Positions 21,752-40,673 of a stretch of DNA of 64,000 bases are shown piece by piece. The notes under the pieces were generated by a model that was not told where the DNA came from, made no database searches, and saw only the letters and a program-made list of their open reading frames with translations. The stretch comes from a virus: positions 64,001-128,000 of IMG/VR virus record IMGVR_UViG_3300035137_000026. One strand, given 5' to 3'. A program made the translations under genes and the position numbers. Each line of letters starts with the position of its first letter. The stretch's first letter is position 1.

Positions 21752-21772
21752 TTAAGGAGGTCGGAAAAGACT

Positions 21773-22450
21773 ATGGCACAGCAGTCTGAATTCACCAAAG
21801 GATATAATAGTTTTTCTGGTATAGACATCAAGGCGACCTTCGGCACAAAGGTCATTGGTAGTCTACAGGGAATCTCTTATTCTATCTCCAGAGAGAAAGC
21901 ACCTATCTACACGATGGGTAGCGCAGATCCACGATCCTTTGCTCGAGGTAAACGTGGTATCGCTGGATCGCTTGTATTCGTCCAGTTTGACGCTGATCCG
22001 CTTATGTGGGAGCTGGCAAACCCAGACGACGAGACAAGACGTCTATACTTCTTGTCTGATATCGATGATCTCAGACCGGAGTACAGCAGCGAAGGCGTTA
22101 TTGACGTCGCAACCACAGGAGTATCTGCAGCACCAGGTTCTTCCAACGCACCAGGCGTGAATATTACAGGGCAGGAAAGTAAGATTACGACAGCAGGTGG
22201 CGACCAGGCCAAAGCCATTCCATGGTATGCGGATCAGATTCCACCATTCGATATCGTTCTCGCAGCTGCAAACGAATATGGCGCACTTGCCATCATGAAG
22301 GTTCTTGGCGTTGAGCTAATGAACTCGGGTTATGGTGTATCCGTGGATGACATTGTTTCAGAGCACAGTTTTACGTATATCGCCCACGGTATGCTTCCTT
22401 GGACAAGCCAGGGTATGCATACTGATATGGAAGGCGTAAACCCACGCTAA
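21773..22450 (+). CDS. Tail tube protein
   Basis: Follows the sheath with SD AAGGAGG. Motifs FSGIDIKA, LQGISYSISREKAPIYTMGS, RGKRGIAGSLVF and DQIPPFDI...NEYG. Confidence 0.85.
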   Translation: MAQQSEFTKGYNSFSGIDIKATFGTKVIGSLQGISYSISREKAPIYTMGSADPRSFARGKRGIAGSLVFVQFDADPLMWELANPDDETRRLYFLSDIDDLRPEYSSEGVIDVATTGVSAAPGSSNAPGVNITGQESKITTAGGDQAKAIPWYADQIPPFDIVLAAANEYGALAIMKVLGVELMNSGYGVSVDDIVSEHSFTYIAHGMLPWTSQGMHTDMEGVNPR

Positions 22451-22468
22451 ACTGTAGTTTCTGAACCC

Positions 22469-22484
22469 GCTAGCACTCGCTAGC
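22469..22484. other. Small hairpin/tandem palindrome GCTAGC-ACTC-GCTAGC in the tube/tube-paralog intergenic region
   Basis: Read directly; 6-bp stem, 4-nt loop, no U-tract. Confidence 0.4.
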
Positions 22485-22506
22485 ATCTCTCCCACGAGGT
22501 CATAAC

Positions 22507-23406
22507 ATGACTCAAAATCTTGGTACCAAAGCAGGCCCTCTGATTCCTTCCGGCGGACTTATTGCCGGTGATGTTCCACAATATGCACAGGTCTCAGAGT
22601 ATGCCAAATGGTACGGCACCTATAGTGGTGCTGATATTAAGGTAGTAGTGCACTACCCATATGACCCCTCTCTCGAGAAGGCGCTCAATGTTGTTAAGGC
22701 TGAATCCGAGGCAGAATTAGCGACTGAGGAAGCTTACTTTTGGGCCAATAGAGGCTCTATGAATACTAAAACTTTTGCTGACCAGATAGCCAAACTCCAG
22801 GCTTTGCGTGCCGATATTGATAGCCTGGATCAGGAGATAGCAAACGCCAGACTGTTACCGACTTCCAAAACTCTTGGTGAAATTCAGACAATTTCTATAG
22901 GTTCTTATCGAGACAAAGCACCGGTCAGGCCCCTGGGATCAGTGTATCCTAGGGGCTATGTCCGAGGTCCTAGATCAATCTCTGGCACCATGATTTTCAC
23001 GATCTTCCACGAGCATGTATTCTCGGATTTACTTAGACTCACTAATATGAGATATTATAGTACAGGGACTAGTGATTATGACAAATACCAGTACACGACA
23101 ATGCTATCAGACCAACTACCTCCTCTAGATATTAGTCTTGTTTTTGCCAATGAATATGGAGCAATATCTCATATGGGATTGTTTGGTGTTGAGTTCTTCC
23201 AGGAAGGCATGACTTTCTCCATCGAAGACATCTACTCTGAGAACATACTACAATATGTAGCCAGGGACTTTGATCCACTCCGCATTGTTGACCAGCGAGA
23301 AGTAGACACCCAGGGTGTTACAAAGACCTGGGCAAGCACAGCATCGGATATGCTTAGAGAGAAACAAATAGTTGCTTACAGAACACGAAGGAATCCCTTT
23401 ATCTAA
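22507..23406 (+). CDS. Tube-fold paralog (tube initiator/baseplate-tube junction-like) with coiled-coil insertion
   Basis: YSGADIKV, IQTISIGSYRDKAPVRPLGS, RGPRSISGTMIF and DQLPPLDI...NEYG all parallel the tube gene. Confidence 0.75.
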   Translation: MTQNLGTKAGPLIPSGGLIAGDVPQYAQVSEYAKWYGTYSGADIKVVVHYPYDPSLEKALNVVKAESEAELATEEAYFWANRGSMNTKTFADQIAKLQALRADIDSLDQEIANARLLPTSKTLGEIQTISIGSYRDKAPVRPLGSVYPRGYVRGPRSISGTMIFTIFHEHVFSDLLRLTNMRYYSTGTSDYDKYQYTTMLSDQLPPLDISLVFANEYGAISHMGLFGVEFFQEGMTFSIEDIYSENILQYVARDFDPLRIVDQREVDTQGVTKTWASTASDMLREKQIVAYRTRRNPFI

Positions 23407-24260
23407 TGACACTACGAGATCACAGAGGGAACATTATTACTCCTCCTCTTGCTGGAGCGACACGGTACGAGTATGACTGGTTTACTGGTTCGCAGATTGG
23501 CATCATGTTTGGTGATGTCTTAGTGGATAATATAGTGGCCATTGACTTTATAGTTAACCAGAACAAGACACCTGTTTACGGATACGCAAATCAGTACTAT
23601 ACTTTTGCTGCAGATGGTAAAGTATTAGTACAAGGGCGGCTAACCGTGGCATTTAAAGAAGCAGGATATCTACTGTGGCCTATTAAACGATTTGTAAACC
23701 AGAAGGCTGCTAGTGAATGGACTACTCCACGTTATGGCAGAGATAGCGACGGTAACCTAATCAAGGGTTACGACTACAATAATAGCAATGGTACGTTTAC
23801 TACTGCAGCCAAGAGAGCTAAGGATCAACGTGTCATGCGTGGTAATATAGAGCAGGTTCTAGAATACAGTGCTAGCGGACTCGAAAATAGAGCTAGTGGT
23901 TTCTGGAAGGAACTTGCTGCCCTTCCTGATGACAGGTTTGAGGAATGGGCTGAAGTATTTGAAGATGTTATCTGGTATGGTAGCGACCCAGAGAATGCCA
24001 TGATGAGAGATCGGCTATTCTCCGGAAACCTCCCAGAGAGGTTTGAACTAAATGATGAGGAAATCCTTTCCCATCGTAGAGCGGATCAATATCCCAACCT
24101 AGATATTTGGATTGTTTACGGGGATATGAATAGACCTGCCGCAAATCACACCGTTAAGAAACTCCTTGATGTTTCATTCACCGGCCAATCCCAGGTCATT
24201 GAAGTATCAGGAGAGCCCATATATGAGCAATATAGTTTTATAGCGAGAAATCTCGTATAA
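23406..24260 (+). CDS. Divergent tube-fold paralog
   Basis: FTGSQIGI, NKTPVYGY, GKVLVQGRLTVAF and DQYPNLDIWIVYG echo the tube motifs; TAATG overlap. Confidence 0.65.
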   Translation: MTLRDHRGNIITPPLAGATRYEYDWFTGSQIGIMFGDVLVDNIVAIDFIVNQNKTPVYGYANQYYTFAADGKVLVQGRLTVAFKEAGYLLWPIKRFVNQKAASEWTTPRYGRDSDGNLIKGYDYNNSNGTFTTAAKRAKDQRVMRGNIEQVLEYSASGLENRASGFWKELAALPDDRFEEWAEVFEDVIWYGSDPENAMMRDRLFSGNLPERFELNDEEILSHRRADQYPNLDIWIVYGDMNRPAANHTVKKLLDVSFTGQSQVIEVSGEPIYEQYSFIARNLV

Positions 24261-24276
24261 CCCCAAGGAGAAAATA

Positions 24277-25023
24277 ATGGGTAAGAAACGTCCGGTAGTC
24301 CAGAGTACTGAGGAAGCACAGCGTGCTGGTGTCGCTGAACAGCTCCTTAGTGCTGGCAAGAAAAACTTTGAAAGCGTGTATGGTCCTAAAGTTGGAGGTT
24401 CATTTGACCTCGGAGACGATATGAGAGCCATGCAAGGAGTGAAAATGATGACCGAAGAACAGGTACAACAGAACCTAGGTGCTGGTGCAGAAGCTGAGAT
24501 GTCTGAGGTACCAGATGGAGTAGACTTTACTCCTGAGTCCACTGTTCCACCTGAGCTAATACAGCCAGAGCTAACAAAGGATATGCTACCACCTGATCCT
24601 TCTCCACAGGAAGAACAGCAGGAAGAAGAAGGTCTGTCAGAGGATCCAGACAAGAGAGCACAGCAAGTTGCTGAGTTTTTGGCTTCTAAGTATCCAGGCG
24701 CACCAAATACCGATACCCTCAAAGAGTGGCGTCGCATTCACGGTGGTGCCTTTATGTTGCAGATTGCAGATAGAATCTTCATCTATCGCTACCTGAAGCG
24801 ACAGGAATGGATTCAGCTCAATGCTAATCCTAAAGCAGCAGAACTGTCTGAGGATGACGTAGAGAATGAAATCTTCAATCGATGTGTGCTGTGGCCAAAA
24901 TACAACCAGATCCAGAAGGCTGGTATGCCAGCTGGTGGTATCAGTATGGTCGTGCAGCAGATTCGCTTGCAGAGCTTGTTCCTTGATCCAGCTTATGTAG
25001 CAACACTAACAGTCAAGATCTAG
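24277..25023 (+). CDS. Putative tail assembly chaperone
   Basis: SD AAGGAG; acidic Pro-rich N-terminal half; C-terminal domain IFIYRYLKRQEW...RCVLWP; position after the tube genes. Confidence 0.55.
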   Translation: MGKKRPVVQSTEEAQRAGVAEQLLSAGKKNFESVYGPKVGGSFDLGDDMRAMQGVKMMTEEQVQQNLGAGAEAEMSEVPDGVDFTPESTVPPELIQPELTKDMLPPDPSPQEEQQEEEGLSEDPDKRAQQVAEFLASKYPGAPNTDTLKEWRRIHGGAFMLQIADRIFIYRYLKRQEWIQLNANPKAAELSEDDVENEIFNRCVLWPKYNQIQKAGMPAGGISMVVQQIRLQSLFLDPAYVATLTVKI

Positions 25024-28700: not shown

Positions 28701-29920
28701 CTGACTACGGTCAGGTATTGGTCGAGAATGAGCTAACAGCATACAAGGATCTGAGAGATGAGTTTGAACAGTTGAGATTCACACAAAGAGAGCAGCTTGC
28801 TGGTAGATTGGGCGAGGCTGCACTACACGGCATTGAAACTCCTCTGGAGATGCTAACACCTATGTCGCCAGCATCTAAACTAATCAGACAACGTTCTCCT
28901 CTTGAGGAGTACATGGCTACAGAGGCTATCGGTACTAGTAACGCTTTCTGGGATAGACCGGTAGAGAACTTCTTGAAGCCGGCAGCTAATATGGCTCTTG
29001 CTGAGATTGGCTTTGATGATATTCCAGAAGATATTCGCCAGCGAAGAGACATCAACGAATACTTTGACATGCTAGCCTGGACTAAGTCTCGCCAAGCTGA
29101 GATGGCAGCTAGACAAATAGATGACTGGAAGGCTGTTAAAGAAGCTCAGGCAGCACAGCACGAGACTCTATTTGGACTGGATGTATTTGGCTCTCCTGTA
29201 GCGGCCATGAAAGCCCTACCACGTAGAGAACGTGATTTTTTTAATGCCTTTGTGAACGCTCATTCTGCAAATGAGAGACAGAGAATCTTAGAACTTATTC
29301 CTGAGAATGAGCAGAGAATCTATATGGCTCAGTGGCTAAGACAGGAAGAAGCTGCTGCTCGAGCTAAGAAGGAAGCAGGGTTGTCCACAAAGTACGATGA
29401 GAATACTTTAGCAGCAGCTATGATGATGAGACGTTCTGAAGGCTTTGGTATTACACCAGAACTGGAAGAACTATGGATGGCTGAGACTGATGGCAAGATT
29501 CCGTTTGATGAGTGGGTTAGAGAGAAGAAGGCTGAAGAGTATTTTGCTACACACTCATTGCCAGGAGCTGACTGGTTGGGCTGGCACCCGTCTGTAGATC
29601 TGGATGATGTCAAACTAAAATACGTTGAGATGGCCGGGCTAGACCATCATGACTTTGATCTTTGGGGCGCACGCCGTAGGTCATTAGCTAGGAAGCCATA
29701 CATTGCCGATGAGCTTATTGCCGATATGTCTGCACAGACAGACTTAGAAAATCTGGCTATCTCAAGAGCAAATGCTAAGGCGATTGCTAAGATGCACGAG
29801 GAGTCAAATGTCTCTTTCTCTAATATTGGAGCAAACTTGCCTCCACGCTATGATATTGAGATAGTAGATAAGAGAGATGGATTAGTACAAGAAGCACATA
29901 AGCGTTTAGGAGCTAGATAA
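25748..29920 (+). CDS. Large virion/ejected protein (tape-measure position) with Gly-rich hydrophobic segments and a degenerate SNase-like domain
   Basis: 1390 aa with several GxxxG hydrophobic stretches. The segment at about 28456-28745 aligns by eye with the thermonuclease OB-fold. Confidence 0.7.
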   Translation: MVSLAGPYITATGPQPEQPGESVSGLAKLGFASAAIAASGFISTGQGGRLWDHYLRGIRTAETAFPAAILRTFRISESLSPLESFKQVAVPAEQMAAGGKYAEFLRSTFGSSIDEISLLSKGAVFGEVRAGGKAVGIGVQMKAGTQKGAAIADYYARITGTPLSARQSLNEALLKAEYFATSPGVPYGQWIEAMDPSQRTRRLILGAKYREKLRILGKDFALSKSIQQKVAKLETLGQLMRAKAASTVGRLNTLLSKPFEFLPERVQQWPIIKTMAVKPGSATQMFGRFIKKAVIAGAAYKGLEYYDYLRHQGSPWATALGVSGGTLAGGALFKGVGRRFSPLGMAVGAGIGLYTSIAPRFDEGLFYGVASIFTDASLARARISRSVGLTESLQRQEAITPGLVSVKTALGFTGVGAMAAGLYGYGGLIGASIREKFGKGGLTADIIENMRETRAGKMGKRLWGTKFGQRVAKTPILKHLTKIKSPMALGALGGLAAYGVLSTGLSLLSGNFGAAMPFASLLGTTETPEELEALYSGEQEVAIRKGRWWEFGRSTPYEGGRIEYYRSHMIHRLRTRAYQKGIYGSEEERWEYDPLMNPLKALFGSDEWKYHYEMKYQYERPAPLTGTYFEDVPFVGPALAATAGKLLKPRKLVRPDEWKYGAGEYRHLPDVRGETEPAYELGGLGPGKPVEPDEGTQLFNELMYRRREAVGLVGFAEGAIEKALTGREEVFQNLQMLGVMGRETGSEYWLWSHLNVGGALGTSEPIRRFIPRTRSYLEEYNPLDNTMPSWIPQDYFLDLTHGNPFKKIKEAEIRLPGPGYAARYPEVVGLQPEEYPLVHRLKILGDVAMWSDEYKQALSRAKRNMNRLSDQEKQMVRTIEAQVKSKKTRREITPYRFRPELLAEEEVTVTDVLDPRRIKTVEYGDAVIELQGVGAVTNMAGALEFAREKLVGNKVTIRTPILESRKYDVTKRGSRVKAVAMLGDTDYGQVLVENELTAYKDLRDEFEQLRFTQREQLAGRLGEAALHGIETPLEMLTPMSPASKLIRQRSPLEEYMATEAIGTSNAFWDRPVENFLKPAANMALAEIGFDDIPEDIRQRRDINEYFDMLAWTKSRQAEMAARQIDDWKAVKEAQAAQHETLFGLDVFGSPVAAMKALPRRERDFFNAFVNAHSANERQRILELIPENEQRIYMAQWLRQEEAAARAKKEAGLSTKYDENTLAAAMMMRRSEGFGITPELEELWMAETDGKIPFDEWVREKKAEEYFATHSLPGADWLGWHPSVDLDDVKLKYVEMAGLDHHDFDLWGARRRSLARKPYIADELIADMSAQTDLENLAISRANAKAIAKMHEESNVSFSNIGANLPPRYDIEIVDKRDGLVQEAHKRLGAR

Positions 29921-32900
29921 TGGCTAAAAACTTTCCATGGAACGTAGAGGAGCGTTCAGACTTTTGGGGATATGGTGCCACAGCAGCTGTTGCTGGTGGC
30001 GTTGGCTATGGTCTGTATCGTGCTAATCCTGCAGTTAGAGCAGCAATGTCAGTAGGCACCAGAGATGTAGCTCATGATGTGGCTGCTGAGCTTAGAACTA
30101 TGGGTAGATTTAATGTCGCTCGAAGAGGCGCTAGATCTGCTATTGACGATATTGGAGAGAATATCCTAACTAACCTTGCTGCATCCAGTAGCCCAGGCAC
30201 AGTTAAAGCAGACATTGCCCAGGCCACATATGAAGCAGCTCTCAGAGGCGGAAGAAGCACACATACAGAAGCTTATAGTGTCTATCAGAAAATCATGCAC
30301 CAAACTACTGTGAGGAATGCCTATGAGCAGGCTAAGGCTGCTATCGGTGAGCTTCAGGGTGATGTGAGCTTGTTGACCAGCCGTATAAGCGATCTGGGAG
30401 AAGGTGGTTTTTATGGTCGATTCATGGGGCAAGAGGGTGGCCGTCTTACCGAGATAGCTAAGGCTGCTACTGCCACAGGAGAATTTGTTGGTAGCAGGGT
30501 AGCTCGTGAAGAGGCTGCATGGATGTCTGGTGCTGTTGCTGATAGAGCAAAGGCAATTCAGGCACGCTTAGACGCTGCTGCTTCTCAAGCCGGCGGTAAA
30601 ATTCAATGGACCGGCATCCAAGACGTTGAAGATATTCTTGAAGGACAGAGAGTTACTACTCCTATGCTGCGTGGTCGTGTCGGTGGTGAGGCTATTAATA
30701 TTCCTCTCAAGGCTACTGGCATGACATATGGTGGCGACCAGCTAACCGCAAGGTATGTTACACGTGGAGCTTTCGGCACAACAGGCGATATTAGAGATTA
30801 CACTACTGAGTACGTTAGTAGATTAGAAGAGATGATGGGTGCTCAGAAGACTAAGACTAGTCTGAAGAATGCTGTTATTGATGCCAACCACGAGATTGTT
30901 AATGCTATGAGGAATAGAGATGCTGCTCATAGATCAATGGCTATCTGGAAAATGCCTGAAGCTATGCTACCTGCGGGTGGTAGAGTAAAGTCTAGAATGA
31001 ATCAGATGGAAGCCGTGTTTGTAGGTCAGATGACAGAAGGCTATCGCAGCAAGGTGATTGCAGAATCTCTGGCTGGCGGGCGTCAACTCTATCCAATCGG
31101 TAGCCCAGAGACGGTAGCTAAAGGAACATTCGTTCGAGGTGACATAGCAGAGCAGCTGTTTGGTCCTATGGGCAGGCTAATGGGTGTGGAGCAGAGACCT
31201 ACTCAGTTCATTCGTGAGAAGTTTGGCGTTACCGCAGAAGCCAAGGCTGCTGCTAGAGGATTCCGTGGTGAGTTTGGTAGACACTTTAGTAGGCTGGAGC
31301 GGAAGATTCAAGGTACTGAATACCAGGGTCTTCTCTATGGCGGCTATGCACCAACCGCAGCACAAGCATATACTGCACCACAGCTAACCGCATTCTATGC
31401 TAAACCTTCTCGTCTAGAAACTGGGCCACTAGCACAACAGATGTTCGCAGAAGAAGCTATCATTTCACGTAGGGTAGCTCCTATGATGGAGTATGAGCGT
31501 ACAGTACAGAAGAAGATTGCTCTTAATGAAGGCTTTAGAGTCAACAAGCAGGTGCTAGATGCTCTAAAGGCTAGAAAGGTTGGAGAGCTTGCAGAGCTTG
31601 GCGAAGTTGGCAGAGGAGGTTTCTTGGGTGTCGAGTTTGGTACGGGTAAAGAACTATGGGTAGAAGGCGCTGGTGGTGCTCGAGCAGATATTATTGGAGC
31701 ACAGCTTACAGGAGAGAACCAAGCTACCGTATTCCTTAAAGAGAGACATCGTTTGTCAGATGAGAAGTGGTGGAAGTTCTTCAGTGAGGATGTAAAGTTC
31801 CTAGGCAAGCAGGCTGATGATGTCCGCATGAGACGTCTAGCTGAGGCTGCTGGTATTGGTACTCAGGTTGCCGGTCAAGACCTTGAGGCTATTGTTAGTG
31901 GTAAGCTTGTTGGCCGTAATCGCATGGCTCTCATGACGCAGCAGATCGAAGCTTTGTCAATGATTACCGCTGGTAAGATGGAAGATAGAGCACTATCGCT
32001 TCGTAGACAGGTGCTGGCCAAAGAGTTCATGACAGACCCAGCTCACTATCTGAAGATTGATAGACTGATGGGCGATCATATGGCAGATGCAGAATACCGA
32101 ATTCAGAAGAACATGGTAGCCTTGGCTAAGAAGTTCAAGTTCTCACCAGAAGAGATGGGACTTACCTTTGGCCTTATGGATGCTAAGAGAGCTGCTGAGC
32201 TGGGTATTGCTGCAGAAGTAGAAGCAGCACCTGGTGTCGTCGGTCTATTCAAGGGACGTCTGGGAGATCTGGCATTTGAAGGCGGAGCTGGCGGACTGGG
32301 TAAGTTTGAGCAGACAGGCTTCCGTCTCTTGGCTATGAAGGGTGAGGAGGGACAGAGGTTCGCTGCTGAGCTGGCTACTAGAATCCGTGGCAAAGATGAA
32401 TTGATTCCTGCTAATCGGATGATGGCTAGTGTGCTCAATGAGATGGAGCTTACAGAACGACTATCTAAGATAGCAGGCAAGGCTCCTATTGACGAGCGTA
32501 CTCTAGCTCAGATGACAGCTGGCGACTTACTCAGAGAAGAGGGTCGGTATGTCACTATCGGTCGGAAGATTCAAGCTTTCGGCGGGGCCAAACAAATCTA
32601 TATTCCTGGCATTAAGGAAGCTCAGGGAATGATGCTCCCTACTATTACAGACAAGGGACAGAGAATCCCATCTGATATTAGTAGAGGACTAGAGGATTTA
32701 CGTGGCTTGGTAGCCAAGGGCGCAGCCCAAGAAGAGATTGAAGATGTAGCTGCTAGACTCAGAACATCTATCGTCCAGCAAACAGAACTACAAGCCTCGG
32801 CTACAGGGAAAATCCTTGGAACTCGGTATCTTACAGGTATTCGACAAACTGCTGCTCAGACAGCACAATCTAATGCTGCATTCAGAATCTCTCCTCGCAC

Positions 32901-34389
32901 AGCCAACAGAATGTTTGAGGACTTGATTGACCGTGCACAAGGCACAGAGCAGAAAGCCTTCCTCAATATGCAGAAACGTAAGCTTCTGGATGAGGGAGAG
33001 CAACTTATAGGTGGTGTGTGGCGTCATCCAACCACAGGACCAGAAAGCTTCCAGTTTGTTCGCTATCAGGTAGACAGAAATCTAGCCGATGAGCTTATTG
33101 CCGCTCCCTACCAAATGGGAGAGATTGTTCTGGGTGGCAAGCGTCATAAGGTAGATGTTTCGGCAATGGTTGGTATGAAGGGCGACTTTGACAAAGATAT
33201 GTTCAATATCGCTGCTATTTCCGACAGAGATACGGTTAAGCGTCTAACAGCCAAGATGAAGAATGAGGTCGCTGAAGGTTATACAGGCTACTTGTTTAAC
33301 CATTACGCTATGAAGGATCTGATTGATCAACGTAAGGGACCGATCAGTGATCTTGTTAACCTAACTAGACAGGAAGCTCTTGAGCAGGGTGCACGCAATC
33401 TGACGACAGCCAAAGTTGCTACTCCACAAGTTAACCTAGCTCTGCAGAAACTCAAGCTTGGCCTGCAATATGCAGCTCCGAAAGAGTATCGTCCTATGGC
33501 TGAGCTGTTCTGGCATCTTGAGGAGGTTGCTATTGGTGGTAAACACGGTGCTCAACAGAGTAGAATGTATCAGGATATTGCTCATGCCGTAAGACAGAGA
33601 GATGCTTCAACCCTCGAAAGTGTTATCAAGACATTAATGGGCGAGAAAGACAAAGTCATCTCGGGTCAGATAACAGGTCCTACAGGAGACCTTGTGCCTC
33701 AGACCATGAAGTATAGCCCAAAGCGGTGGGCTGATCAGGCTATGCAGGCGGCAGTATCTGCTAGTGAGGATGTAGAGATTGCATACAAGTCTGCTCGGGC
33801 AGCTAAGGGTATAGTGCCACAGGATATGTCCACATTGGTTGAGATGTATTATAAGCGTAGAACAGGCTCGTTAGATGTGGCTCAATCTGTAATGCATTCC
33901 AAGTCTTATGGTATGCCAGGATTTACAGAGAGAGCTAATAGAGTATTGCGTCAGGCCGGCACAAAGACTCGAGCTATTCTTGGTGCTCTAAGTAAAGCTA
34001 AGGCTCCAGCTCTTGTTGGAGCAGCAATTGGAGCCGGCATGATGCTGTCTGCTCCTTCTGTGTCGGGCGCACTACAAGCACCCAGAGAAGGCCCTGCTGG
34101 TGGAAGAAATATAAATAACATAGATCTAGGTCCTCCGGCTGGTGTTGGAGTCAATCCTCCACCTCCAAGGATTATGGTATCGCCCAAGGCTTATGATATG
34201 GGTGGAATTAAGATGTCATCTCGTGCTAATATTAGAATGTCTATGCCGGATGCACAGCAGTCTGGTGGAGACTTCATGCGAAACGCTAGAACTTTAGCTA
34301 GTGGCGGAAATGTCAGAGTCCGGACAACAGATGATCGAGAGGCTCTTAGTCCCCACCGATTGGCGAATAAGATACATGAGAGACTGTAA
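29920..34389 (+). CDS. Candidate single-chain two-barrel (beta+beta'-like) RNA polymerase, probably virion-packaged
   Basis: 1489 aa. beta-like motifs EEAIIS (511-516), ATVFLKERHRL..K619FFSEDVK626 and NR668M are followed by beta'-like motifs GKILGTR, FRISPRTANRMF, WR1035HPTT and GD1089FD1091KD1093. Confidence 0.72.
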   Translation: MAKNFPWNVEERSDFWGYGATAAVAGGVGYGLYRANPAVRAAMSVGTRDVAHDVAAELRTMGRFNVARRGARSAIDDIGENILTNLAASSSPGTVKADIAQATYEAALRGGRSTHTEAYSVYQKIMHQTTVRNAYEQAKAAIGELQGDVSLLTSRISDLGEGGFYGRFMGQEGGRLTEIAKAATATGEFVGSRVAREEAAWMSGAVADRAKAIQARLDAAASQAGGKIQWTGIQDVEDILEGQRVTTPMLRGRVGGEAINIPLKATGMTYGGDQLTARYVTRGAFGTTGDIRDYTTEYVSRLEEMMGAQKTKTSLKNAVIDANHEIVNAMRNRDAAHRSMAIWKMPEAMLPAGGRVKSRMNQMEAVFVGQMTEGYRSKVIAESLAGGRQLYPIGSPETVAKGTFVRGDIAEQLFGPMGRLMGVEQRPTQFIREKFGVTAEAKAAARGFRGEFGRHFSRLERKIQGTEYQGLLYGGYAPTAAQAYTAPQLTAFYAKPSRLETGPLAQQMFAEEAIISRRVAPMMEYERTVQKKIALNEGFRVNKQVLDALKARKVGELAELGEVGRGGFLGVEFGTGKELWVEGAGGARADIIGAQLTGENQATVFLKERHRLSDEKWWKFFSEDVKFLGKQADDVRMRRLAEAAGIGTQVAGQDLEAIVSGKLVGRNRMALMTQQIEALSMITAGKMEDRALSLRRQVLAKEFMTDPAHYLKIDRLMGDHMADAEYRIQKNMVALAKKFKFSPEEMGLTFGLMDAKRAAELGIAAEVEAAPGVVGLFKGRLGDLAFEGGAGGLGKFEQTGFRLLAMKGEEGQRFAAELATRIRGKDELIPANRMMASVLNEMELTERLSKIAGKAPIDERTLAQMTAGDLLREEGRYVTIGRKIQAFGGAKQIYIPGIKEAQGMMLPTITDKGQRIPSDISRGLEDLRGLVAKGAAQEEIEDVAARLRTSIVQQTELQASATGKILGTRYLTGIRQTAAQTAQSNAAFRISPRTANRMFEDLIDRAQGTEQKAFLNMQKRKLLDEGEQLIGGVWRHPTTGPESFQFVRYQVDRNLADELIAAPYQMGEIVLGGKRHKVDVSAMVGMKGDFDKDMFNIAAISDRDTVKRLTAKMKNEVAEGYTGYLFNHYAMKDLIDQRKGPISDLVNLTRQEALEQGARNLTTAKVATPQVNLALQKLKLGLQYAAPKEYRPMAELFWHLEEVAIGGKHGAQQSRMYQDIAHAVRQRDASTLESVIKTLMGEKDKVISGQITGPTGDLVPQTMKYSPKRWADQAMQAAVSASEDVEIAYKSARAAKGIVPQDMSTLVEMYYKRRTGSLDVAQSVMHSKSYGMPGFTERANRVLRQAGTKTRAILGALSKAKAPALVGAAIGAGMMLSAPSVSGALQAPREGPAGGRNINNIDLGPPAGVGVNPPPPRIMVSPKAYDMGGIKMSSRANIRMSMPDAQQSGGDFMRNARTLASGGNVRVRTTDDREALSPHRLANKIHERL

Positions 34390-34394
34390 AAACT

Positions 34395-37300
34395 ATGCCT
34401 AAAACTATATACGATCAGCTCCCCGAGTACCAAGATCAGACAACAGAGGCTACTCTCCCAGGAGAGAATGGTCAGGATGTGCCCGCAGGTTCAATCTATG
34501 ACCAGCTACCCAATGGTTTTGGAGAGGGGCCTATTCCTGATGAATGGGTTCCAGGAGCAAAACAAGATCGCCAGAAAGCAGCGGATTTCTTCCGTCAGGA
34601 AGTAGATTTCCGTGGCTTTCCAGATGACTTCTTGATCATCAACGATGTTGTTATCTCTGGAATTCCCACCACAGCTGTATCGATTGAATCTAGTAATGAT
34701 GTTGTTGTAGCAGAGACTCTTAGATCTCGCTCGCCAGTGGTGTCTACTAAGGGTACTCAGAGTATCATGGTAAACATCTCTTTGGTGTTTCCTCCAGGAC
34801 AAGAGCAGTCATATAAACTTCGCCGGTTGATTTCAGAGCTACAGCATCATCCGTTACTTTATGTATACAATGGTAAGATTCGCAAGTCCTTAAATATAGT
34901 CGACCCATCTGAGAATACAATCTTTGTTCTCGAGACGGCTACAATGCGTAGTGACTCCGAGCATACTGGTTCAATTATACTAGATATGACTCTACACTAT
35001 TTCAACTATAAGCCATTCTCACACCACTTCTGGTACAACACAGAATTGCCGTGGACTAAGCCAACGAAAGAACAGGCTGGTGATGATACAGAGCCTAATG
35101 AGCTATATCTAGGTGATCTCATAGGATATGAGGCATCATCTCATTCTATGGATAGAGAGTCTGAGAAGATGGCACGTGATTTGTACAATGGCACAATTGC
35201 TTTGTTTGGCGAAAAGCCAAATGCACCAGTCAATATGCCAATGGCTTCTAAGTCCTGGATGTACTATGCCTCGCATATGTATATGAAAACATGGGCTGTC
35301 AAGGAGACTACCAGTGACTACGTAGGTATCCATCTAAGACAGTATGAGTATAGAACACCAGATAGTGATGAGGCTCGGGCGGGTCGTGGTGCTATTAAGG
35401 ATATATTTAGAGAAGTGACCGAGGATGATCTGCCAAAATTCAACTACCATTATAAATCTCAAGTAGATATACCAAAGGAACAGTATGCAGACCTGACTGC
35501 CACTGAGCGACAGGCACATCATGCGATTGACAAAGAACATGCTCCGCCACCCAAACCAACTGGAATAGATTGGCTAGATACCCGCAATGAACTTGTTTCT
35601 ACATATGGTATTTCAGTATTCGCCGTAAAGAATGGTTTAACACCTGGTGTCTTGAGTCCAGTATTAGCTAATGCTGATGGGTCATATCGAAGCTTCCAGA
35701 ATGCCAGCAAGTGTAACATTCACTTTTTTGAAGTTCTGTATCGCAGCGGTTACGAAGTCTCAGTGGTGAAGACTAAATATGGAAAAGGCTATCCACAGAT
35801 TGGTGGTATGCTTCGTCAGATCCGGAGTCCTAGACTTAAGTGGGGTATTCGTATTTCTACTAAGACAAAGTCTCAGATTAATAAGATCATCCAGACTGGT
35901 GTGCCATGTGGTTTGTTAAACAACTTTCACGTTGTTATTCTGACCAAGGTACACGAGGTAGAGCATGCATCAGATGGAAGAATTACTCGTATCAGATTTG
36001 CTGGCTATGATCAAAAGAAGCTTGGCGAATATAAATCTTGGACATGGACAGACAAAAAGACTCCTGGGGGCCTAGAGATTGTACAAGCTATTCCATCTGG
36101 TACGAGACCGCCATATCGTAATCCTCTTGGCCCGATCAAGAAGAAAGATGCGGTTGTTGAATTTGTTAACAAGGTTAATAAGGCCGAGACCAAACAGACT
36201 GGCGGTAAGCAGGACGGCAAGATACTTAAGGACAATAGAAGCGCAACCAAGCGAATGAACTGGATCAAGAAGATATACTTCAACGAAGGCCTTGAATATT
36301 ATACTGATGATCAGAAAGTACGAAACGTATTCTTTAGAGATATTAGCTGTCATGTTTCTAGCGATCCGATTAATGTTGAACTGATTAACAGACAGAATAT
36401 TGTGATTGCAGAAGACATGGTAACATCTGCTGTGTCGGTAACATTCGGCAATCGCCTTGCTAAGCAAAAATTGCTAAGTCAGGATACTCATACATGGCAG
36501 TTCTTGGGTGCCGGCAATAAAACTGGCACCCTAGTCTTCACATTTGCTGGCGATACAGGCCGTAGGTCAGCTGATAATATCAAGAAGATAATCTATGAGT
36601 CTCGTCGCAATGCTAGGAAGTTTGGTTCTGTTATTCCTGATGCTGGCACAATCAAACTATCATGGGAGGCTCCAGATGGTCGGCAATCTCCAAATACAAT
36701 TTTAGCTTTGTTTGCTGGCAGAACAGGTGAGCATCCACAGAAGGATATGAGTGTAATCGTCACTGATTTCTCAGAGCAGAGCGATCCAAATAACTCAGAC
36801 CTGCACCAGCTAGTAGTCAACTTTATTGTTCAGGACTTTGCAGAAGAGAAGCTAGACAGAAATGTCTTTACTTCTCTGGATCAGAAGAAGCGTGTTCTTA
36901 GTGTTATCATGGATAAGTTTGTCTCTTCTGGTTGGGTTACACCCCAAGAAGATTATGAAGATAAAGACAAGCTTGAGGAAGATGGTAGACTTTGGTTTGT
37001 TGCTGCCAATCCAGAATATATTCTTTATCGAGATACCAAGACAGTTCGTGAGGAGTATCTTATACAGAAACACGTAGAGGGTACAGGTGTTGTCGGTGGT
37101 GGTGCTCGCCCATTTAAGATTGTTGGTAATAAAATCCCAGCATGGCTTGCACCTATTATCATTGAAGCTGTGGCTTATACAGTTAGAGCAAACGATAAGC
37201 TTCCGAGATGGGATACTACTATTTTTGATACTTTTGCCGCTGAACGTCACATGAAAGGTTATAGAGACAATAACGAAACCAAGCGATTGCCAGGCCGTTC

Positions 37301-40300
37301 TTCTTCTGGGCCTGCTGGTAATGTGACACATCCTGGTGAAGAGGTTAATGATCGTGAAGCAAACAACAGGCTGGTGGATCAGATCTTTAATGAGTGGAGT
37401 ACTAATATGGATATTGTATTCCAGAAGATCATGCAACATGCTACTGCTTCTGACTTCAAAAATCACTTTGGTGAGATCGGAGACGAACTTGTAGATGCAT
37501 TAGTGTCTCAGATGGGCGAATGCTACGATGATTTGATGCTACCGCCTACACCTGAGTATAACGTACCTCTACCACCAGACTTCTATGTGTATGATGACTC
37601 GCATGAAGATCCGGCGCTATCCACACTGACAGATGATGGCAATATCGAATTGCTTCTGCGACAGCATTTGCGTAACGAGCGCAAGTCTGTAGCTCGCTAT
37701 CTAGAGGACTATACACTCGGTGGCTCTTATATGTCTAGAAACGTAGAGTTCATCAAGTCTACTCGAGATCATTATGTTTCTCAGATGGACAACGAGATAA
37801 AGTTCATTAACTTTAGTCAAATGTTGGCTGAGGGTTGCTCTACTTGGGAGCCAGTATTTTATAGAAATACAGACCCTGTCTACAATGAAGCTACGGTGAA
37901 GAAGTGGACAGATCACGTTCTTAGTAAGGGTGGCGGCTCAGAAGATGAGAGCCGTCAGACCTTTATGGAGAATCTTGTCAAGCTCAGTCCTTATCTAGGT
38001 GGAGAAGCACGACATTGGATGGCAGACAAGGATCAGCCATATAGTGAAGTTGTAAATCAGATCTATGAAGAGAACTGGAAGCGTCTTGCCTTTGGTCCTA
38101 ATCCTGACTATCAGGCTGCTGATACTGTCATGAATGGTAATCCAATTGATCCTCAAGCTGAGGCTTCACGTCAGGCTATTAAGAAGACAGAATCGGAAGA
38201 GCAGGCCGAAGCGCAACAGAATGCTGAGACATATGGGCCGCATCAAACTAAGATGGAAGATGGTTCCATTACATTCGGCCAGAGCCAGAATGAACGAGAC
38301 GCAGCAGGTTCTGGTATCGGCGGAGCCATTATGGAAGCCTTAGGCACGGTTGGATCATTCTTCTTGGCCACAGCAGAGGCCACAAACCCTGTGATTAGTT
38401 TAGCTAGCAAGGGTATCTCGGCTCTCGTGCAGACAATGAATCACGAAGATGTCAAGAATGTATTCAAGGAAGAGAATGAAGACAACGTCCGTTCTAAGAC
38501 TGCAGCATCTACAGCACTTGGTACAAAGTGGAAAGATCTAAGTATTAGACGTGTGTTCCCTACATTTAAGATATACTTCATTGAAGACGACGAATCAGGA
38601 ACAGAGATCTTACAAGGGCGTACAATCAGAGCATTCGATGACTTTTATTCCTACTCGGCTGTACAAGAGATTAGGGTAATTCGCTCTCGCAAGGTAGCTG
38701 CAGACTTGGCTATTATTCGAATTACCAATGTCGGTGGCAAGTTGCTGCGTAGGCGCTTTGGTGAAGAATCGCAGTATGAGAAAGACCAGAAAGCAAAGTT
38801 TGGTATTGAAGCTGAATATGAAACAGGTATTTTTGCTGATACCGAGAAGGAGAACCCATTTGAGAGAATGGTTCTTCAAGATGGTGTGAAAGTTCAGATT
38901 CGTTTGGGATATGCTAGCAATCCGGACCATTTGGAAACCGTATTCCTAGGTAGCATTGTGGAAATGTCACCTCGGGAAGATGGAAAGATCATAGAGCTGG
39001 TGTGTCAAGGATTCGGAGCTGAGCTAGAAGGTGTAGAGTTGGGGCCTCTGGAGGATGGCCCAATCTTCTATTCCTCACAGCAGGTTCTGTCTGGAGCTAT
39101 TATCCAAGATAGTATTGTTAACTTTGGTCGCCGCTCTAGATGGAATAGAACTCCATCGGCTGAGCAGAGACATCAGTTCACCGGTGGTGAAGGAACTGGC
39201 ACTCTTGGGCAGGTAGGGCCAAGTTCAGTACTAAGAGCTTGGGCTGAAGCACGACAAGGTCGCATGAGCTTCAAGTACCCCTTTAGGAACTACCCACAGG
39301 ACGACAACATTTTTGCGCCTCCTCCAGCTCAGTATGCTACTAAGTGGATGAGGTTCTGGAATAATGCTTGTACCTACCGGCCGCTCAAACAGACACCGTG
39401 GCAGGTATTCAAAGAGCACGAGCTTAGACATCCAGGATATATCTCTCTAGCGGTACCATATGGTCACTCGCCTCGTATGACTATGTTCTTCGGAGCTAAG
39501 GGTCAGCACTATTGGAAGGAACCACCTACAGGACTAGAAATGTTCTTAGCTGAGAGTGCAGAGGAAGAGATCATCAGACTGCGTGGACTGAACAAGGCTC
39601 AGCGTAACCAGGCTCAGTTTAGACAGAACCTGGAGAAGATCGCTAAAGAGAATACGGCTTTGGCAAATGCTATTCTGAAGGGTGTCTCTTCATTCTCTCA
39701 TCCACTTGATGTAGGCACGAAGCTTGGTGAGATTTTTGGTCGCTACAGACCATTCAGAAACTATCATTACTTCGATTCTTCGCACCATATCCTTAAGAAC
39801 TCCATCAGCACAAACCGTGATGGTACATTCAATGAGGTTGAAGTTCTATACTTCTCAGATGAGAATGACATTGAAGAAGACGATATTGATGAACTCGTCA
39901 CCAACCTTGAGCAGCTATCTCGAGGCGAAGCTGGCCTGATGGCTTGTCAGCTGGACGAGAATATGCCTGAAGAGTATATCCGCTCTTACAGAGAAGAGTT
40001 CCCCTCTTGTGTGACGGATGACATGGCTAGACGATACGTCCAGGGTCTGTTTGCACGGCTGCTTAGAGACAGCTACAAGGGTGAGCTTATTGTTCTAGGT
40101 GAGCCGACACTCAAGCCATACGATGTATGCTATCTCAATGACTCGAGTATCAACATGACTGGGCCTATTGAAGTAGAGCAGGTAGAACAGATTTTCAATA
40201 GAGATTTCGGGTACATATCAATCATTACACCTGACATGTGTCTTGATATCAATGACTACTACAGCGCAACGACATTTGACCTAACAGCTGCTAGTATGGC

Positions 40301-40673
40301 TTATACATTTGGTCTGGACAACCCCGACACAGCATTATCTTTGGGTATGTTGGCTTCGCCTCTTGGAACCTTAGCTTGGGCTGGTGGCGTAAAGCTGATA
40401 AAACATACACAGGATGGTGTTCCTGTAATAGCTACGCCATTAGTGCTAAATGGCAAGCCTATGATGAGTGTAGCTATGGGACAGAAGAGGGGCTCACTAT
40501 TGCTTAAGTGGCATGGCCAATGGAAGCAGTATAGAGATGATCTGGCAACTGCTTGGAGTAAGTTTGATATTGCTGAGTCGATGTTCCAGGATGGTCTTGA
40601 TCGACAAGAAAGTCTATTTGGCTTCTTTGGAGCTGAGATAGGCGAATCTATACCAACCGCCGAACCTGACTAG
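34395..40673 (+). CDS. Baseplate hub (gp27/GpD-like) multidomain protein with a possible papain-like hydrolase domain
   Basis: 2092 aa. C-terminal hub-like motifs FPTFKIYFI, QEIRVIRSRKVAADLAIIRITN, VQIRLGY...TVFLG.I, QGFGAEL and YKGELIVLG. Internal KC440N...H512. Confidence 0.75.
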   Translation: MPKTIYDQLPEYQDQTTEATLPGENGQDVPAGSIYDQLPNGFGEGPIPDEWVPGAKQDRQKAADFFRQEVDFRGFPDDFLIINDVVISGIPTTAVSIESSNDVVVAETLRSRSPVVSTKGTQSIMVNISLVFPPGQEQSYKLRRLISELQHHPLLYVYNGKIRKSLNIVDPSENTIFVLETATMRSDSEHTGSIILDMTLHYFNYKPFSHHFWYNTELPWTKPTKEQAGDDTEPNELYLGDLIGYEASSHSMDRESEKMARDLYNGTIALFGEKPNAPVNMPMASKSWMYYASHMYMKTWAVKETTSDYVGIHLRQYEYRTPDSDEARAGRGAIKDIFREVTEDDLPKFNYHYKSQVDIPKEQYADLTATERQAHHAIDKEHAPPPKPTGIDWLDTRNELVSTYGISVFAVKNGLTPGVLSPVLANADGSYRSFQNASKCNIHFFEVLYRSGYEVSVVKTKYGKGYPQIGGMLRQIRSPRLKWGIRISTKTKSQINKIIQTGVPCGLLNNFHVVILTKVHEVEHASDGRITRIRFAGYDQKKLGEYKSWTWTDKKTPGGLEIVQAIPSGTRPPYRNPLGPIKKKDAVVEFVNKVNKAETKQTGGKQDGKILKDNRSATKRMNWIKKIYFNEGLEYYTDDQKVRNVFFRDISCHVSSDPINVELINRQNIVIAEDMVTSAVSVTFGNRLAKQKLLSQDTHTWQFLGAGNKTGTLVFTFAGDTGRRSADNIKKIIYESRRNARKFGSVIPDAGTIKLSWEAPDGRQSPNTILALFAGRTGEHPQKDMSVIVTDFSEQSDPNNSDLHQLVVNFIVQDFAEEKLDRNVFTSLDQKKRVLSVIMDKFVSSGWVTPQEDYEDKDKLEEDGRLWFVAANPEYILYRDTKTVREEYLIQKHVEGTGVVGGGARPFKIVGNKIPAWLAPIIIEAVAYTVRANDKLPRWDTTIFDTFAAERHMKGYRDNNETKRLPGRSSSGPAGNVTHPGEEVNDREANNRLVDQIFNEWSTNMDIVFQKIMQHATASDFKNHFGEIGDELVDALVSQMGECYDDLMLPPTPEYNVPLPPDFYVYDDSHEDPALSTLTDDGNIELLLRQHLRNERKSVARYLEDYTLGGSYMSRNVEFIKSTRDHYVSQMDNEIKFINFSQMLAEGCSTWEPVFYRNTDPVYNEATVKKWTDHVLSKGGGSEDESRQTFMENLVKLSPYLGGEARHWMADKDQPYSEVVNQIYEENWKRLAFGPNPDYQAADTVMNGNPIDPQAEASRQAIKKTESEEQAEAQQNAETYGPHQTKMEDGSITFGQSQNERDAAGSGIGGAIMEALGTVGSFFLATAEATNPVISLASKGISALVQTMNHEDVKNVFKEENEDNVRSKTAASTALGTKWKDLSIRRVFPTFKIYFIEDDESGTEILQGRTIRAFDDFYSYSAVQEIRVIRSRKVAADLAIIRITNVGGKLLRRRFGEESQYEKDQKAKFGIEAEYETGIFADTEKENPFERMVLQDGVKVQIRLGYASNPDHLETVFLGSIVEMSPREDGKIIELVCQGFGAELEGVELGPLEDGPIFYSSQQVLSGAIIQDSIVNFGRRSRWNRTPSAEQRHQFTGGEGTGTLGQVGPSSVLRAWAEARQGRMSFKYPFRNYPQDDNIFAPPPAQYATKWMRFWNNACTYRPLKQTPWQVFKEHELRHPGYISLAVPYGHSPRMTMFFGAKGQHYWKEPPTGLEMFLAESAEEEIIRLRGLNKAQRNQAQFRQNLEKIAKENTALANAILKGVSSFSHPLDVGTKLGEIFGRYRPFRNYHYFDSSHHILKNSISTNRDGTFNEVEVLYFSDENDIEEDDIDELVTNLEQLSRGEAGLMACQLDENMPEEYIRSYREEFPSCVTDDMARRYVQGLFARLLRDSYKGELIVLGEPTLKPYDVCYLNDSSINMTGPIEVEQVEQIFNRDFGYISIITPDMCLDINDYYSATTFDLTAASMAYTFGLDNPDTALSLGMLASPLGTLAWAGGVKLIKHTQDGVPVIATPLVLNGKPMMSVAMGQKRGSLLLKWHGQWKQYRDDLATAWSKFDIAESMFQDGLDRQESLFGFFGAEIGESIPTAEPD

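What the first reader, a model, noticed from the sequence alone, without database searches (positions are those of the whole stretch)
29920..34389. Candidate single-chain two-barrel RNA polymerase encoded at the tape-measure position of the tail module
Seen in sequence, in order within one 1489-aa protein: E511EAIISRR; then GARADIIG...ATVFLKERHRLSDEKWWK619FFSEDVK626; then EAIVS...NR668MALMTQQIE; then G963KILGTRYLTG...F988RISPRTANRMFEDLI; then QLIGGVWR1035HPTTGPESFQFV; then GMKGD1089FD1091KD1093MFNIAAI (nt 33184-33198). Established knowledge: these mirror E. coli RNAP beta motifs (EDSILVSE, E813/D814; VKVYLAVKRRIQPGDK1065MAGRHGNK1073; SR1106MNIGQILE) and beta' motifs (GKRVDYSGRSVI...CGLPKKMALELFKPFI; NR425APTLH; NAD460FD462GD464). 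Single-chain two-barrel phage RNAPs are known (crAss-like phi14:2 gp66, SPbeta YonO, and the tape-measure-fused virion RNAP gp96 of Thermus phage P23-45). Inference: this is a compact virion RNAP with an intact Asp triad but a G-to-K change in the motif, here in a contractile-tailed phage and with hydrophobic Gly-rich termini. It would be ejected to transcribe early genes. LEEVAIGGKH1209 may be a trigger-loop remnant (weak).
Basis: partly seen in the sequence, partly recalled or inferred. Interest (0 to 1): 0.93.

Follow-up and report, generated by a model that had tools for sequence, protein, structure and literature searches.

The report
RNA polymerase hidden among tail genes
An unannotated 1,489-residue gene among the tail genes of an uncultured 198-kb contractile-tailed phage encodes a one-chain, highly diverged version of the cell's RNA polymerase core. 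The phage probably carries it in the particle and injects it to start its own transcription.

Summary
ORF 29920-34389 (+) encodes 1,489 aa, and every quoted motif sits at the stated residue.

No Pfam, PHROG, PDB-sequence or INPHARED match exists. An AlphaFold2 model of aa 480-1320 (pLDDT 84, pTM 0.79) matches only RNA polymerases:
- aa 480-790 match beta-type subunits.
- aa 841-1319 match beta'-type subunits.
- The whole model matches the single-chain two-barrel enzymes RDR2 and QDE-1 (Z 10.9 and 9.9), P74-26 gp62 (Z 8.0) and P23-45 gp96 (Z about 6).

Across 35 homologs down to 15% identity, only 11 columns are invariant. They include K619, K626, R1035 and D1089/D1091/D1093.

The gene is translationally coupled inside a conserved tail block: sheath, tube, chaperone, 1,390-aa protein, this gene, baseplate hub. 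Its flanking genes are homologs of mass-spectrometry-verified virion proteins of Bacillus phage 0305phi8-36. The cultured Acinetobacter phage vB_AbaM_ME3 carries a distant ortholog, ME3_36, annotated as hypothetical.

It is not a tape-measure fusion, because nearly the whole chain is globular polymerase with short hydrophobic ends. Packaging and ejection are inferred, not shown.

This scan had already found the same family in several other genomes. The published literature I could search does not describe it.

The parts
29920..34389 (+). Gene for the 1,489-aa single-chain two-barrel RNA polymerase (P0001)
   Evidence: ORF and translation. About 70 cluster representatives in metagenomes, 15-81% identity, nearly all 1,430-1,725 aa.
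29908..29912 (+). AGGAG ribosome-binding site. The start codon overlaps the stop of the upstream gene (TAATG).
   Evidence: Read directly.
29959..30021 (+). N-terminal Gly/Ala-rich hydrophobic helix (aa 14-34)
   Evidence: Helix 14-34 in the N-terminal model. W16 and G27 are conserved. It falls below the hydrophobicity cut-off used.
30151..30459 (+). Helical bundle (aa 78-180), function unknown
   Evidence: AF2 model mdede6e9531e7. Only generic helical-bundle matches, Z<=6.6.
30529..31509 (+). Alpha/beta region (aa 204-530) resembling the N-terminal (lobe/protrusion) half of beta-type subunits. This is suggestive only.
   Evidence: VIA-align: 6rfl_B Z 5.9 (251 aligned), 8qma_A 5.5, 6j9e_C 5.1, 7s00_c 4.7. 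Foldseek's top hit is RNAP beta 6dcf_C, but at E 0.097.
31357..32289 (+). Beta-type catalytic half with the first double-psi barrel (aa 480-790)
   Evidence: Model residues 1-312 align to E. coli beta 785-1244 (8sy6_I, Z 9.2), vaccinia Rpo132, and AR9 and phiKZ non-virion RNAP beta-like chains.
31774..31797 (+). K619-x6-K626, the two basic residues of the beta-type barrel
   Evidence: Invariant in 35 homologs down to 15% identity. Also kept in ME3_36 as K632/K639.
32440..33876 (+). Beta'-type half (aa 841-1319)
   Evidence: Model residues 360-840 align to Rpb1, beta', Pol I/III/IV largest subunits, Z 8.8-9.8, 300-345 residues aligned.
32818..33222 (+). Beta'-type double-psi beta-barrel (aa 967-1101)
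   Evidence: Bare DPBB domains (7dww_A, 7dbo_B, 1cz5_A and others) align to model 488-622.
33022..33030 (+). R1035-H-P1037 ([RK]xP motif, equivalent of beta' NRAP)
   Evidence: R1035 is invariant and P1037 near-invariant. Fits the filter used in PMC10770324 Supplementary Data 4.
33184..33198 (+). D1089-F-D1091-K-D1093 metal-binding triad
   Evidence: The three Asp are invariant. They are present in every full-length family member, while the x positions vary.
33367..33474 (+). Long helix (aa 1150-1185), candidate bridge helix
   Evidence: Helix 671-706 of the model. T1168, N1172, Q1176 and K1179 are invariant among relatives of 36% identity or more, with a helical i/i+4 spacing. The assignment is inferred.
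33478..33594 (+). Helix-loop-helix (aa 1187-1225) with GGKHG at a low-confidence tip, candidate trigger loop
   Evidence: Helices 708-726 and 734-746 flank a loop with pLDDT<50. E1201 is invariant; I1205 and K1208 are near-invariant. The assignment is inferred.
34003..34074 (+). C-terminal hydrophobic Gly/Ala-rich helix (aa 1362-1385)
   Evidence: Kyte-Doolittle peak 1.48 at aa 1364-1382. Aligned to equivalent segments of ME3_36 and 0305phi8-36 gp146.
34216..34386 (+). Conserved C-terminal tail (aa 1433-1489, consensus ...IRM...DDRS.L.P..LANKIHERL)
   Evidence: Strongly conserved in the family. Shared with the C-terminus of the virion protein gp146 of phage 0305phi8-36.
25748..29920 (+). Upstream 1,390-aa partner gene (P0113) with about five hydrophobic Gly-rich segments in aa 24-522. 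Possible real tape measure or membrane-channel protein.
   Evidence: Homolog of 0305phi8-36 gp145 (virion protein by MS; E 7e-69) and ME3_35 (7e-59). Hydrophobic segments.
34395..40673 (+). Downstream 2,092-aa baseplate hub with a cell-wall-lytic domain (P0114)
   Evidence: phrog_20474 match at aa 1778-1952. Homolog of the ME3_37 baseplate hub (2e-27).
19841..25023 (+). Sheath, tube, two tube paralogs and a tail chaperone homolog that precede the giants
   Evidence: PHROG sheath hits. phmmer hits to 0305phi8-36 gp140-gp143 and ME3_30-33.

Best explanation
P0001 is a DNA-dependent RNA polymerase of the two-barrel (double-psi beta-barrel) superfamily built as a single chain.

Layout along the chain:
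- A beta-like half (about aa 205-790) supplies K619 and K626.
- A beta'-like half (about aa 841-1320) supplies R1035 and the Mg-binding D1089/D1091/D1093, followed by bridge-helix-like and trigger-loop-like elements.
- The core is framed by a short hydrophobic N-terminal helix, a C-terminal hydrophobic helix and a conserved C-terminal tail.

Proposed mechanism: the gene is made late, as part of the tail operon, together with the 1,390-aa protein P0113. The protein is built into the virion, most likely in or at the tail lumen/baseplate. It is expelled on sheath contraction and then transcribes the first phage genes without host RNA polymerase. Its hydrophobic ends may hold it at the membrane channel through which the DNA enters.

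Shown here: the fold, the order of the two halves, conservation of the catalytic residues, and the operon position. Inferred: enzymatic activity, template type, packaging, ejection and membrane anchoring.
For: Fold:
- The AF2 model of aa 480-1320 has pLDDT 84.3 and pTM 0.79.
- Foldseek found 88 PDB hits at E<=1e-3, and every listed row is an RNAP beta' or beta chain.
- Of 994 re-aligned chains, 988 have Z>=5 and 364 have Z>=8.
- In an independent all-against-48,161 search, the top hits span both barrels: RDR2 7w84_A (Z 10.9, 359 aligned), QDE-1 7y7p_A (Z 9.9, 373 aligned), P74-26 gp62 (Z 8.0), P23-45 gp96 (Z 6.1 and 5.6).

Catalytic residues:
- K619, K626, R1035, D1089, D1091 and D1093 are among only 11 invariant columns at 15-65% identity.
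- The Asp triad is present in all full-length members.

Virion role:
- The gene sits in a translationally coupled tail block.
- The block is conserved in contigs of the most distant homologs.
- Flanking genes are homologs of 0305phi8-36 gp140-143 and gp145. The C-terminal module matches gp146. All except gp143 (annotated only as a hypothetical tail chaperonin) are listed there as virion proteins by mass spectrometry.
- A polymerase expressed with late structural genes is useful mainly if it is carried into the next cell. This is established for N4, phiKZ-like, crAss-like and P23-45 virion RNAPs (PMC10770324, PMC7598289).
- No other RNAP candidate, T7-like RNAP or sigma-70 region 2 was found in the complete 197,730-bp genome.
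Against: - No direct evidence exists of activity, of presence in particles, or of ejection.
- Model coordinates could not be inspected, so convergence of the residues on one site is inferred only from whole-chain superposition on QDE-1 and RDR2.
- The active-site loop itself (aa 1089-1091) has pLDDT<50.
- An 840-1,100-residue globular enzyme does not obviously fit folded in a tail-tube lumen.
- No phage-specific promoter motif was found. A few sigma-70-like promoters exist, so host RNA polymerase is probably also used.
- The positional counterpart in 0305phi8-36 (gp146) has no DxDxD.
Confidence: 0.6

Rival explanations
1. It is an active two-barrel RNA polymerase that is not packaged. It works only inside the infected cell, for example for late genes, and its place in the tail operon is historical.
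For: It is the only RNAP candidate in the genome, so any phage-specific transcription would have to use it. Small non-virion single-chain RNAPs exist (YonO; P23-45 gp64 and P74-26 gp62, the latter hit at Z 8.0).
Against: The position between chaperone and hub is strictly conserved, with translational coupling, down to about 15% identity. The hydrophobic termini and the C-terminal module are shared with the virion protein gp146. An enzyme made only with late structural genes cannot start the programme.
Confidence: 0.15
2. It is packaged and catalytically active but has another job. It could be an RNA-dependent RNA polymerase or a primer-making enzyme, like its closest structural matches RDR2 and QDE-1.
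For: The best whole-chain structural matches are cellular RdRPs (Z 10.9 and 9.9). QDE-1 uses both DNA and RNA templates (PMC9508822).
Against: The characterised phage members of the RdRP-like branch are DNA-dependent transcriptases: crAss-like gp66, P23-45 gp96, and YonO (YonO from my own knowledge). The genome encodes DNA polymerase and primase/helicase-sized genes of its own.
Confidence: 0.1
3. It is a structural tail or ejection protein that keeps an RNA-polymerase-like fold but no longer polymerises (an inactive remnant).
For: The positional counterpart gp146 of 0305phi8-36 lacks DxDxD, so the slot can be filled by a protein without the triad.
Against: The residues that stay invariant across the family are precisely the catalytic ones. 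Almost everything else has changed.
Confidence: 0.05

Closest known systems
Thermus phage P23-45 gp96, the tape-measure-fused virion RNA polymerase (PDB 8H2M/8H2N; Chaban et al. 2024, PMC10770324)
   Same: Both are single-chain two-barrel RNAPs encoded at the tape-measure locus of a tailed phage. The structural match spans both barrels (Z 6.1 and 5.6). Both have the [RK]xP...DxDxD signature.
   Different: No sequence similarity was detectable. gp96 is the N-terminal part of a 5,002-aa tape measure of a non-contractile 800-nm tail. P0001 is a free-standing 1,489-aa gene in a contractile-tail module, with only about 200 N-terminal and 170 C-terminal residues outside the polymerase. No longer fused relatives were found.
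Eukaryotic RdRPs QDE-1 (7Y7P, 2J7N) and RDR2 (7W84)
   Same: These are the best whole-chain structural matches, with both barrels in one chain in the same order (Z 9.4-10.9, 359-409 residues aligned).
   Different: They are cellular RNA-silencing enzymes with about 10% identity, no virion context and no hydrophobic termini.
crAss-like phage phi14:2 gp66 virion RNAP and SPbeta YonO
   Same: Both are single-chain two-barrel phage RNAPs. gp66 is virion-packaged and carries DFDxD (bioRxiv 10.1101/2020.03.07.982082).
   Different: Neither was compared directly here, and neither appeared in the listed rows. gp66 belongs to short-tailed phages and is part of a much larger protein. YonO is a small non-virion prophage enzyme.
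Multisubunit virion RNAPs of phiKZ/AR9-type jumbo myoviruses
   Same: They are two-barrel enzymes carried by large contractile-tailed phages. Their beta-like chains match aa 480-790 (7s00_C Z 8.6, 7ogp_C Z 8.0).
   Different: They are split into four or five polypeptides and encoded outside the tail module. From my own knowledge, they are packaged in the head.
Acinetobacter phage vB_AbaM_ME3 ME3_36 (AND75197.1, 'hypothetical protein') and Bacillus phage 0305phi8-36 gp146 ('hypothetical tape measure protein')
   Same: They occupy the same slot in a gene-by-gene syntenic tail block.

ME3_36:
- It keeps G570, G576, K619, K626 and a GGDHDQD triad.
- Its BFVD model matches the P0001 core (A0A172Q021_2, E 2e-7).

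gp146:
- It shares the C-terminal module.
   Different: No pairwise sequence similarity was found. gp146 has no DxDxD. Iyer et al. [quoted passage not shown]

Membership tests
Two-barrel (double-psi beta-barrel) RNA polymerase superfamily | Two DPBB domains arranged as in beta/beta' around one cleft | tested here: met
   The AF2 model (pLDDT 84) matches beta-type chains with aa 480-790 and beta'-type chains with aa 841-1319. It matches single-chain two-barrel enzymes over the whole length.
Two-barrel (double-psi beta-barrel) RNA polymerase superfamily | DxDxD aspartate triad in the beta'-type barrel | tested here: met
   D1089, D1091 and D1093 are invariant in 35 homologs down to 15% identity and present in all full-length members. 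They lie inside the segment matched by bare DPBB domains.
Two-barrel (double-psi beta-barrel) RNA polymerase superfamily | Two conserved basic residues in the beta-type barrel | tested here: met
   K619 and K626 are invariant. They lie within the part aligned to E. coli beta 785-1244.
Two-barrel (double-psi beta-barrel) RNA polymerase superfamily | [RK]xP 20-100 residues before the triad (filter of PMC10770324 Supplementary Data 4) | tested here: met
   R1035-H-P1037 lies 51 residues before D1089. R1035 is invariant.
Two-barrel (double-psi beta-barrel) RNA polymerase superfamily | Catalytic residues of both barrels converge on one site; bridge helix and trigger loop present | tested here: inconclusive
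This is inferred from whole-chain superposition and from a long conserved helix followed by a helix-loop-helix at aa 1150-1225.
Two-barrel (double-psi beta-barrel) RNA polymerase superfamily | Template-dependent NTP polymerisation | not testable with these tools
   Needs a biochemical assay.
P23-45 gp96-type tape-measure-fused virion RNAP | Polymerase fused to a long tape-measure region | tested here: not met
   Both models are globular, and only about 370 residues lie outside the polymerase. No relatives of 2,607-5,000 aa were found, which is weak evidence.
P23-45 gp96-type tape-measure-fused virion RNAP | Detectable sequence homology to gp96 | tested here: not met
   phmmer and a family profile against all PDB chain sequences found no RNAP. 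The similarity is structural only, Z about 6.
Virion (ejected) RNA polymerases in general | Protein present in purified particles; early transcription independent of host RNAP | not testable with these tools
   Only indirect support: the operon position and homology of neighbouring genes and of the C-terminal module to MS-verified virion proteins of 0305phi8-36.
Tail tape measure proteins | Gene between tail chaperone(s) and baseplate hub | tested here: met
   The slot is shared with the upstream 1,390-aa gene.
Tail tape measure proteins | Extended, mostly helical chain suited to span the tube | tested here: not met
   Globular alpha/beta models with pTM 0.70-0.79 cover aa 1-1320.

The most novel reading that the evidence does not exclude
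A whole lineage of large contractile-tailed phages, including the cultured Acinetobacter phage vB_AbaM_ME3, stores a complete single-chain RNA polymerase in the tail rather than the head. After contraction the enzyme stays tethered by its hydrophobic ends to the membrane channel formed with the neighbouring 1,390-aa protein. There it transcribes, and thereby helps pull in, the entering genome.
Probability: 0.25. Interest if true: 0.9.

Novelty: new variant of a known kind. Interest (0 to 1): 0.75.

Why it matters
Single-chain two-barrel virion RNA polymerases are known from only a few phage lineages: crAss-like podoviruses and P23-45-like siphoviruses. This family adds one in large myoviruses. 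It is a free-standing gene in the tape-measure slot and is invisible to Pfam, PHROGs and sequence searches of the PDB.

It matters for three reasons:
- Phages that a published survey counted as having no RNA polymerase of their own (PMC7824862) may start infection independently of the host enzyme.
- It raises a concrete structural problem: how a polymerase of about 1,100 residues is stored and delivered through a contractile tail.
- It names a cultured, testable representative, ME3_36 of Acinetobacter phage vB_AbaM_ME3.

The very compact, diverged core is also useful for working out the minimal two-barrel polymerase.

Tried and rejected
- Library searches: Pfam, PHROGs, phmmer and a family profile against PDB sequences, and tblastn against 50,697 phage records, all returned nothing for P0001.
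- Second polymerase in the genome: no T7-like RNAP (PF00940; its controls also failed to ring, so this is weak), no sigma-70 region 2, and no other [RK]xP...DxDxD protein.
- Phage-specific promoter motif, by k-mer enrichment genome-wide and in 127 upstream regions: nothing convincing. Only a few sigma-70-like TTGACG-17-TACTATAAT sites turned up.
- Genome ends: only a 127-bp terminal overlap was found, so the end that enters first is unknown.
- Longer fused forms (2,607-5,000 aa): none found, which is weak evidence.
- ESM Atlas look-up of the upstream protein P0113: no usable hit.
- ME3_309 (798 aa), whose BFVD model resembles the core, was checked as a possible second RNAP. It has no DxDxD and no homolog in this genome.
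- Microcystis phage MaMV-DC: a structural hit in BFVD, but no sequence match with the family profile.
- crAss gp66 and YonO did not appear in the listed structural rows. That says nothing about relatedness.

Full report
**What is there**

The window is bases 64001-128000 of a complete 197,730-bp viral record. An AGGAG lies 7 nt upstream. The ATG overlaps the TAA of the preceding 1,390-aa gene, and the next gene starts 6 nt after the stop. So the gene is a translationally coupled member of a long plus-strand structural operon.

**Context**

PHROG and Pfam scans identify the following:
- terminase, portal and major capsid protein upstream;
- a tail sheath (19841-21751) and tube-like paralogs (21773-24260);
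- three giant genes of 1,390, 1,489 and 2,092 aa, the last with a lytic domain;
- baseplate wedge genes.

The block is syntenic, gene by gene, with Acinetobacter phage vB_AbaM_ME3 and Bacillus phage 0305phi8-36:
- the tube matches gp140 and ME3_30;
- the tube paralogs match gp141 and gp142;
- the chaperone matches gp143 and ME3_33;
- P0113 matches gp145 (7e-69) and ME3_35 (7e-59);
- the hub matches ME3_37 (2e-27).

Only the P0001 slot has no pairwise-detectable counterpart. It is filled by ME3_36 (1,603 aa, 'hypothetical') and gp146 (2,537 aa, 'hypothetical tape measure protein'). The 0305phi8-36 record lists gp140, gp141, gp142, gp145 and gp146 as virion proteins found by mass spectrometry; gp143 is annotated only as a hypothetical tail chaperonin.

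**The family**

P0001 has no Pfam, PHROG, PDB-sequence or INPHARED hit. Metagenome searches give 56 relatives at 36-81% identity. An exhaustive phmmer search gives 69 cluster representatives, nearly all 1,430-1,725 aa.

In an alignment of 35 members at 15-65% identity, just 11 columns are invariant: G570, G576, K619, K626, Q674, P896, R1035, D1089, D1091, D1093 and E1201. The three Asp occur in every full-length member, while the intervening residues vary (DFDKD, DFDRD, DTDGD, DLDAD and others). E511 is invariant only among closer relatives.

Contigs of the most distant members keep the same trio of giants. Their flanking genes are clear homologs of P0113 and P0114, sometimes interrupted by homing-endonuclease genes.

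**Fold**

An AlphaFold2 model of aa 480-1320, built with 52 sequences, has pLDDT 84.3 and pTM 0.79.
- Foldseek against the PDB gives 88 hits at E<=1e-3, and every listed row is an RNAP beta' or beta chain.
- On re-alignment, 988 of 994 chains score Z>=5.
- An independent alignment to 48,161 representative chains puts single-chain two-barrel enzymes on top, each spanning the whole model: RDR2 (Z 10.9), QDE-1 (Z 9.9), P74-26 gp62 (Z 8.0), P23-45 gp96 (Z 6.1 and 5.6).
- Beta-type subunits match aa 480-790, beta'-type subunits match aa 841-1319, and isolated DPBB domains match aa 967-1101, which contains the triad.

After the second barrel come a long conserved helix (aa 1150-1185) and a helix, low-confidence loop (GGKHG) and helix (aa 1187-1225). 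This is the expected layout of a bridge helix and trigger loop, but it is an inference.

A second model (aa 1-560, pLDDT 78.9) shows an N-terminal helix, a helical bundle and an alpha/beta region. The alpha/beta region (aa 204-530) weakly resembles the N-terminal halves of beta-type subunits (Z 4.7-5.9; Foldseek E 0.097). So almost the whole chain is polymerase. It is not tape-measure-like, and no longer fused relatives were found.

**Relatives in culture**

A family profile finds ME3_36 in the ME3 genome (E 1.7e-8 per genome) over the beta-type barrel, with G570, G576, K619 and K626 conserved. ME3_36 also carries SREPAQG...GGDHDQD at the corresponding place. Its BFVD model is among the best viral matches to the P0001 core (E 2e-7).

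gp146 of 0305phi8-36 shares only the C-terminal module, a hydrophobic helix plus a ...DDRS... tail, and has no DxDxD.

Iyer et al. [quoted passage not shown] The survey in PMC10770324 (Supplementary Data 4) lists neither ME3 nor 0305phi8-36. I found no paper describing this family.

**Mechanism**

P0001 is the only RNAP candidate in the genome. It is made with the late tail genes and is framed by Gly/Ala-rich hydrophobic helices. Its C-terminal module is shared with a verified virion protein.

The best reading is a virion-borne enzyme delivered with the DNA to transcribe early genes, as in N4, crAss-like, phiKZ-like and P23-45 phages (PMC10770324). Activity, packaging, location in the particle and promoters remain untested. 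No promoter motif emerged.

**Other notes from this scan**

After my own analysis I found that other windows and other genomes had yielded the same family, with similar follow-up verdicts. They agree with this report but are not independent evidence.

Noticed in passing
L018:28227-30623 (-), Acinetobacter phage vB_AbaM_ME3 ME3_309: The BFVD model of this 798-aa hypothetical protein (A0A172Q0S6) resembles the P0001 polymerase core (Foldseek E 5e-5). It has no DxDxD motif and no homolog in this genome. It could be a second, aberrant RNAP-like protein of ME3.
   Followed up: partly
BFVD hits A0A075BUT7_2 (Microcystis phage MaMV-DC), A0A7R7G2L5_2, A0A8S5SD80_1 ('minor tail protein', Siphoviridae sp.): Predicted structures of large unannotated proteins from other phages, including a cultured cyanophage, match the polymerase core at E 3e-6 to 5e-11. 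MaMV-DC shows no sequence match to the family profile. Similar hidden polymerases may be more widespread.
   Followed up: partly
window 25748-29920 (+), P0113: This 1,390-aa protein has about five Gly/Ala-rich hydrophobic segments in aa 24-522. It is a homolog of the virion protein gp145 of 0305phi8-36. It is always found next to the polymerase gene and is a candidate tape measure or membrane-channel partner.
   Followed up: partly
window 21773-24260 (+): Three consecutive tube-like paralogs (225, 299 and 284 aa) all hit phrog_9206, which is labelled 'major head protein'. They are homologs of the tail tube gp140 and its paralogs in 0305phi8-36. The PHROG label looks wrong.
   Followed up: partly
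L009:7984-8760 and L012:8152-9371: In two distant relatives, mobile-element genes (NUMOD3 homing endonuclease; T5orf172/MUG113) are inserted exactly between the upstream giant gene and the polymerase gene.
   Followed up: no
L016:8557-24816 (-), ME3_104: ME3 encodes a 5,419-aa hypothetical protein next to tail-fibre genes.
   Followed up: no
genome G000 outside the window (minus strand): Repeated tRNA T-arm words (GGATTCGAACC, GGATTTGAACC) indicate several phage tRNA genes. A few strong sigma-70-like promoters (TTGACG-17-TACTATAAT, e.g. near base 168852) point to some use of host RNA polymerase.
   Followed up: no
window 16794-18596 (+): A 600-aa protein with bacterial Ig-like Big_5 domains lies between the capsid and tail genes. 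It is probably a decoration or fibre protein.
   Followed up: no
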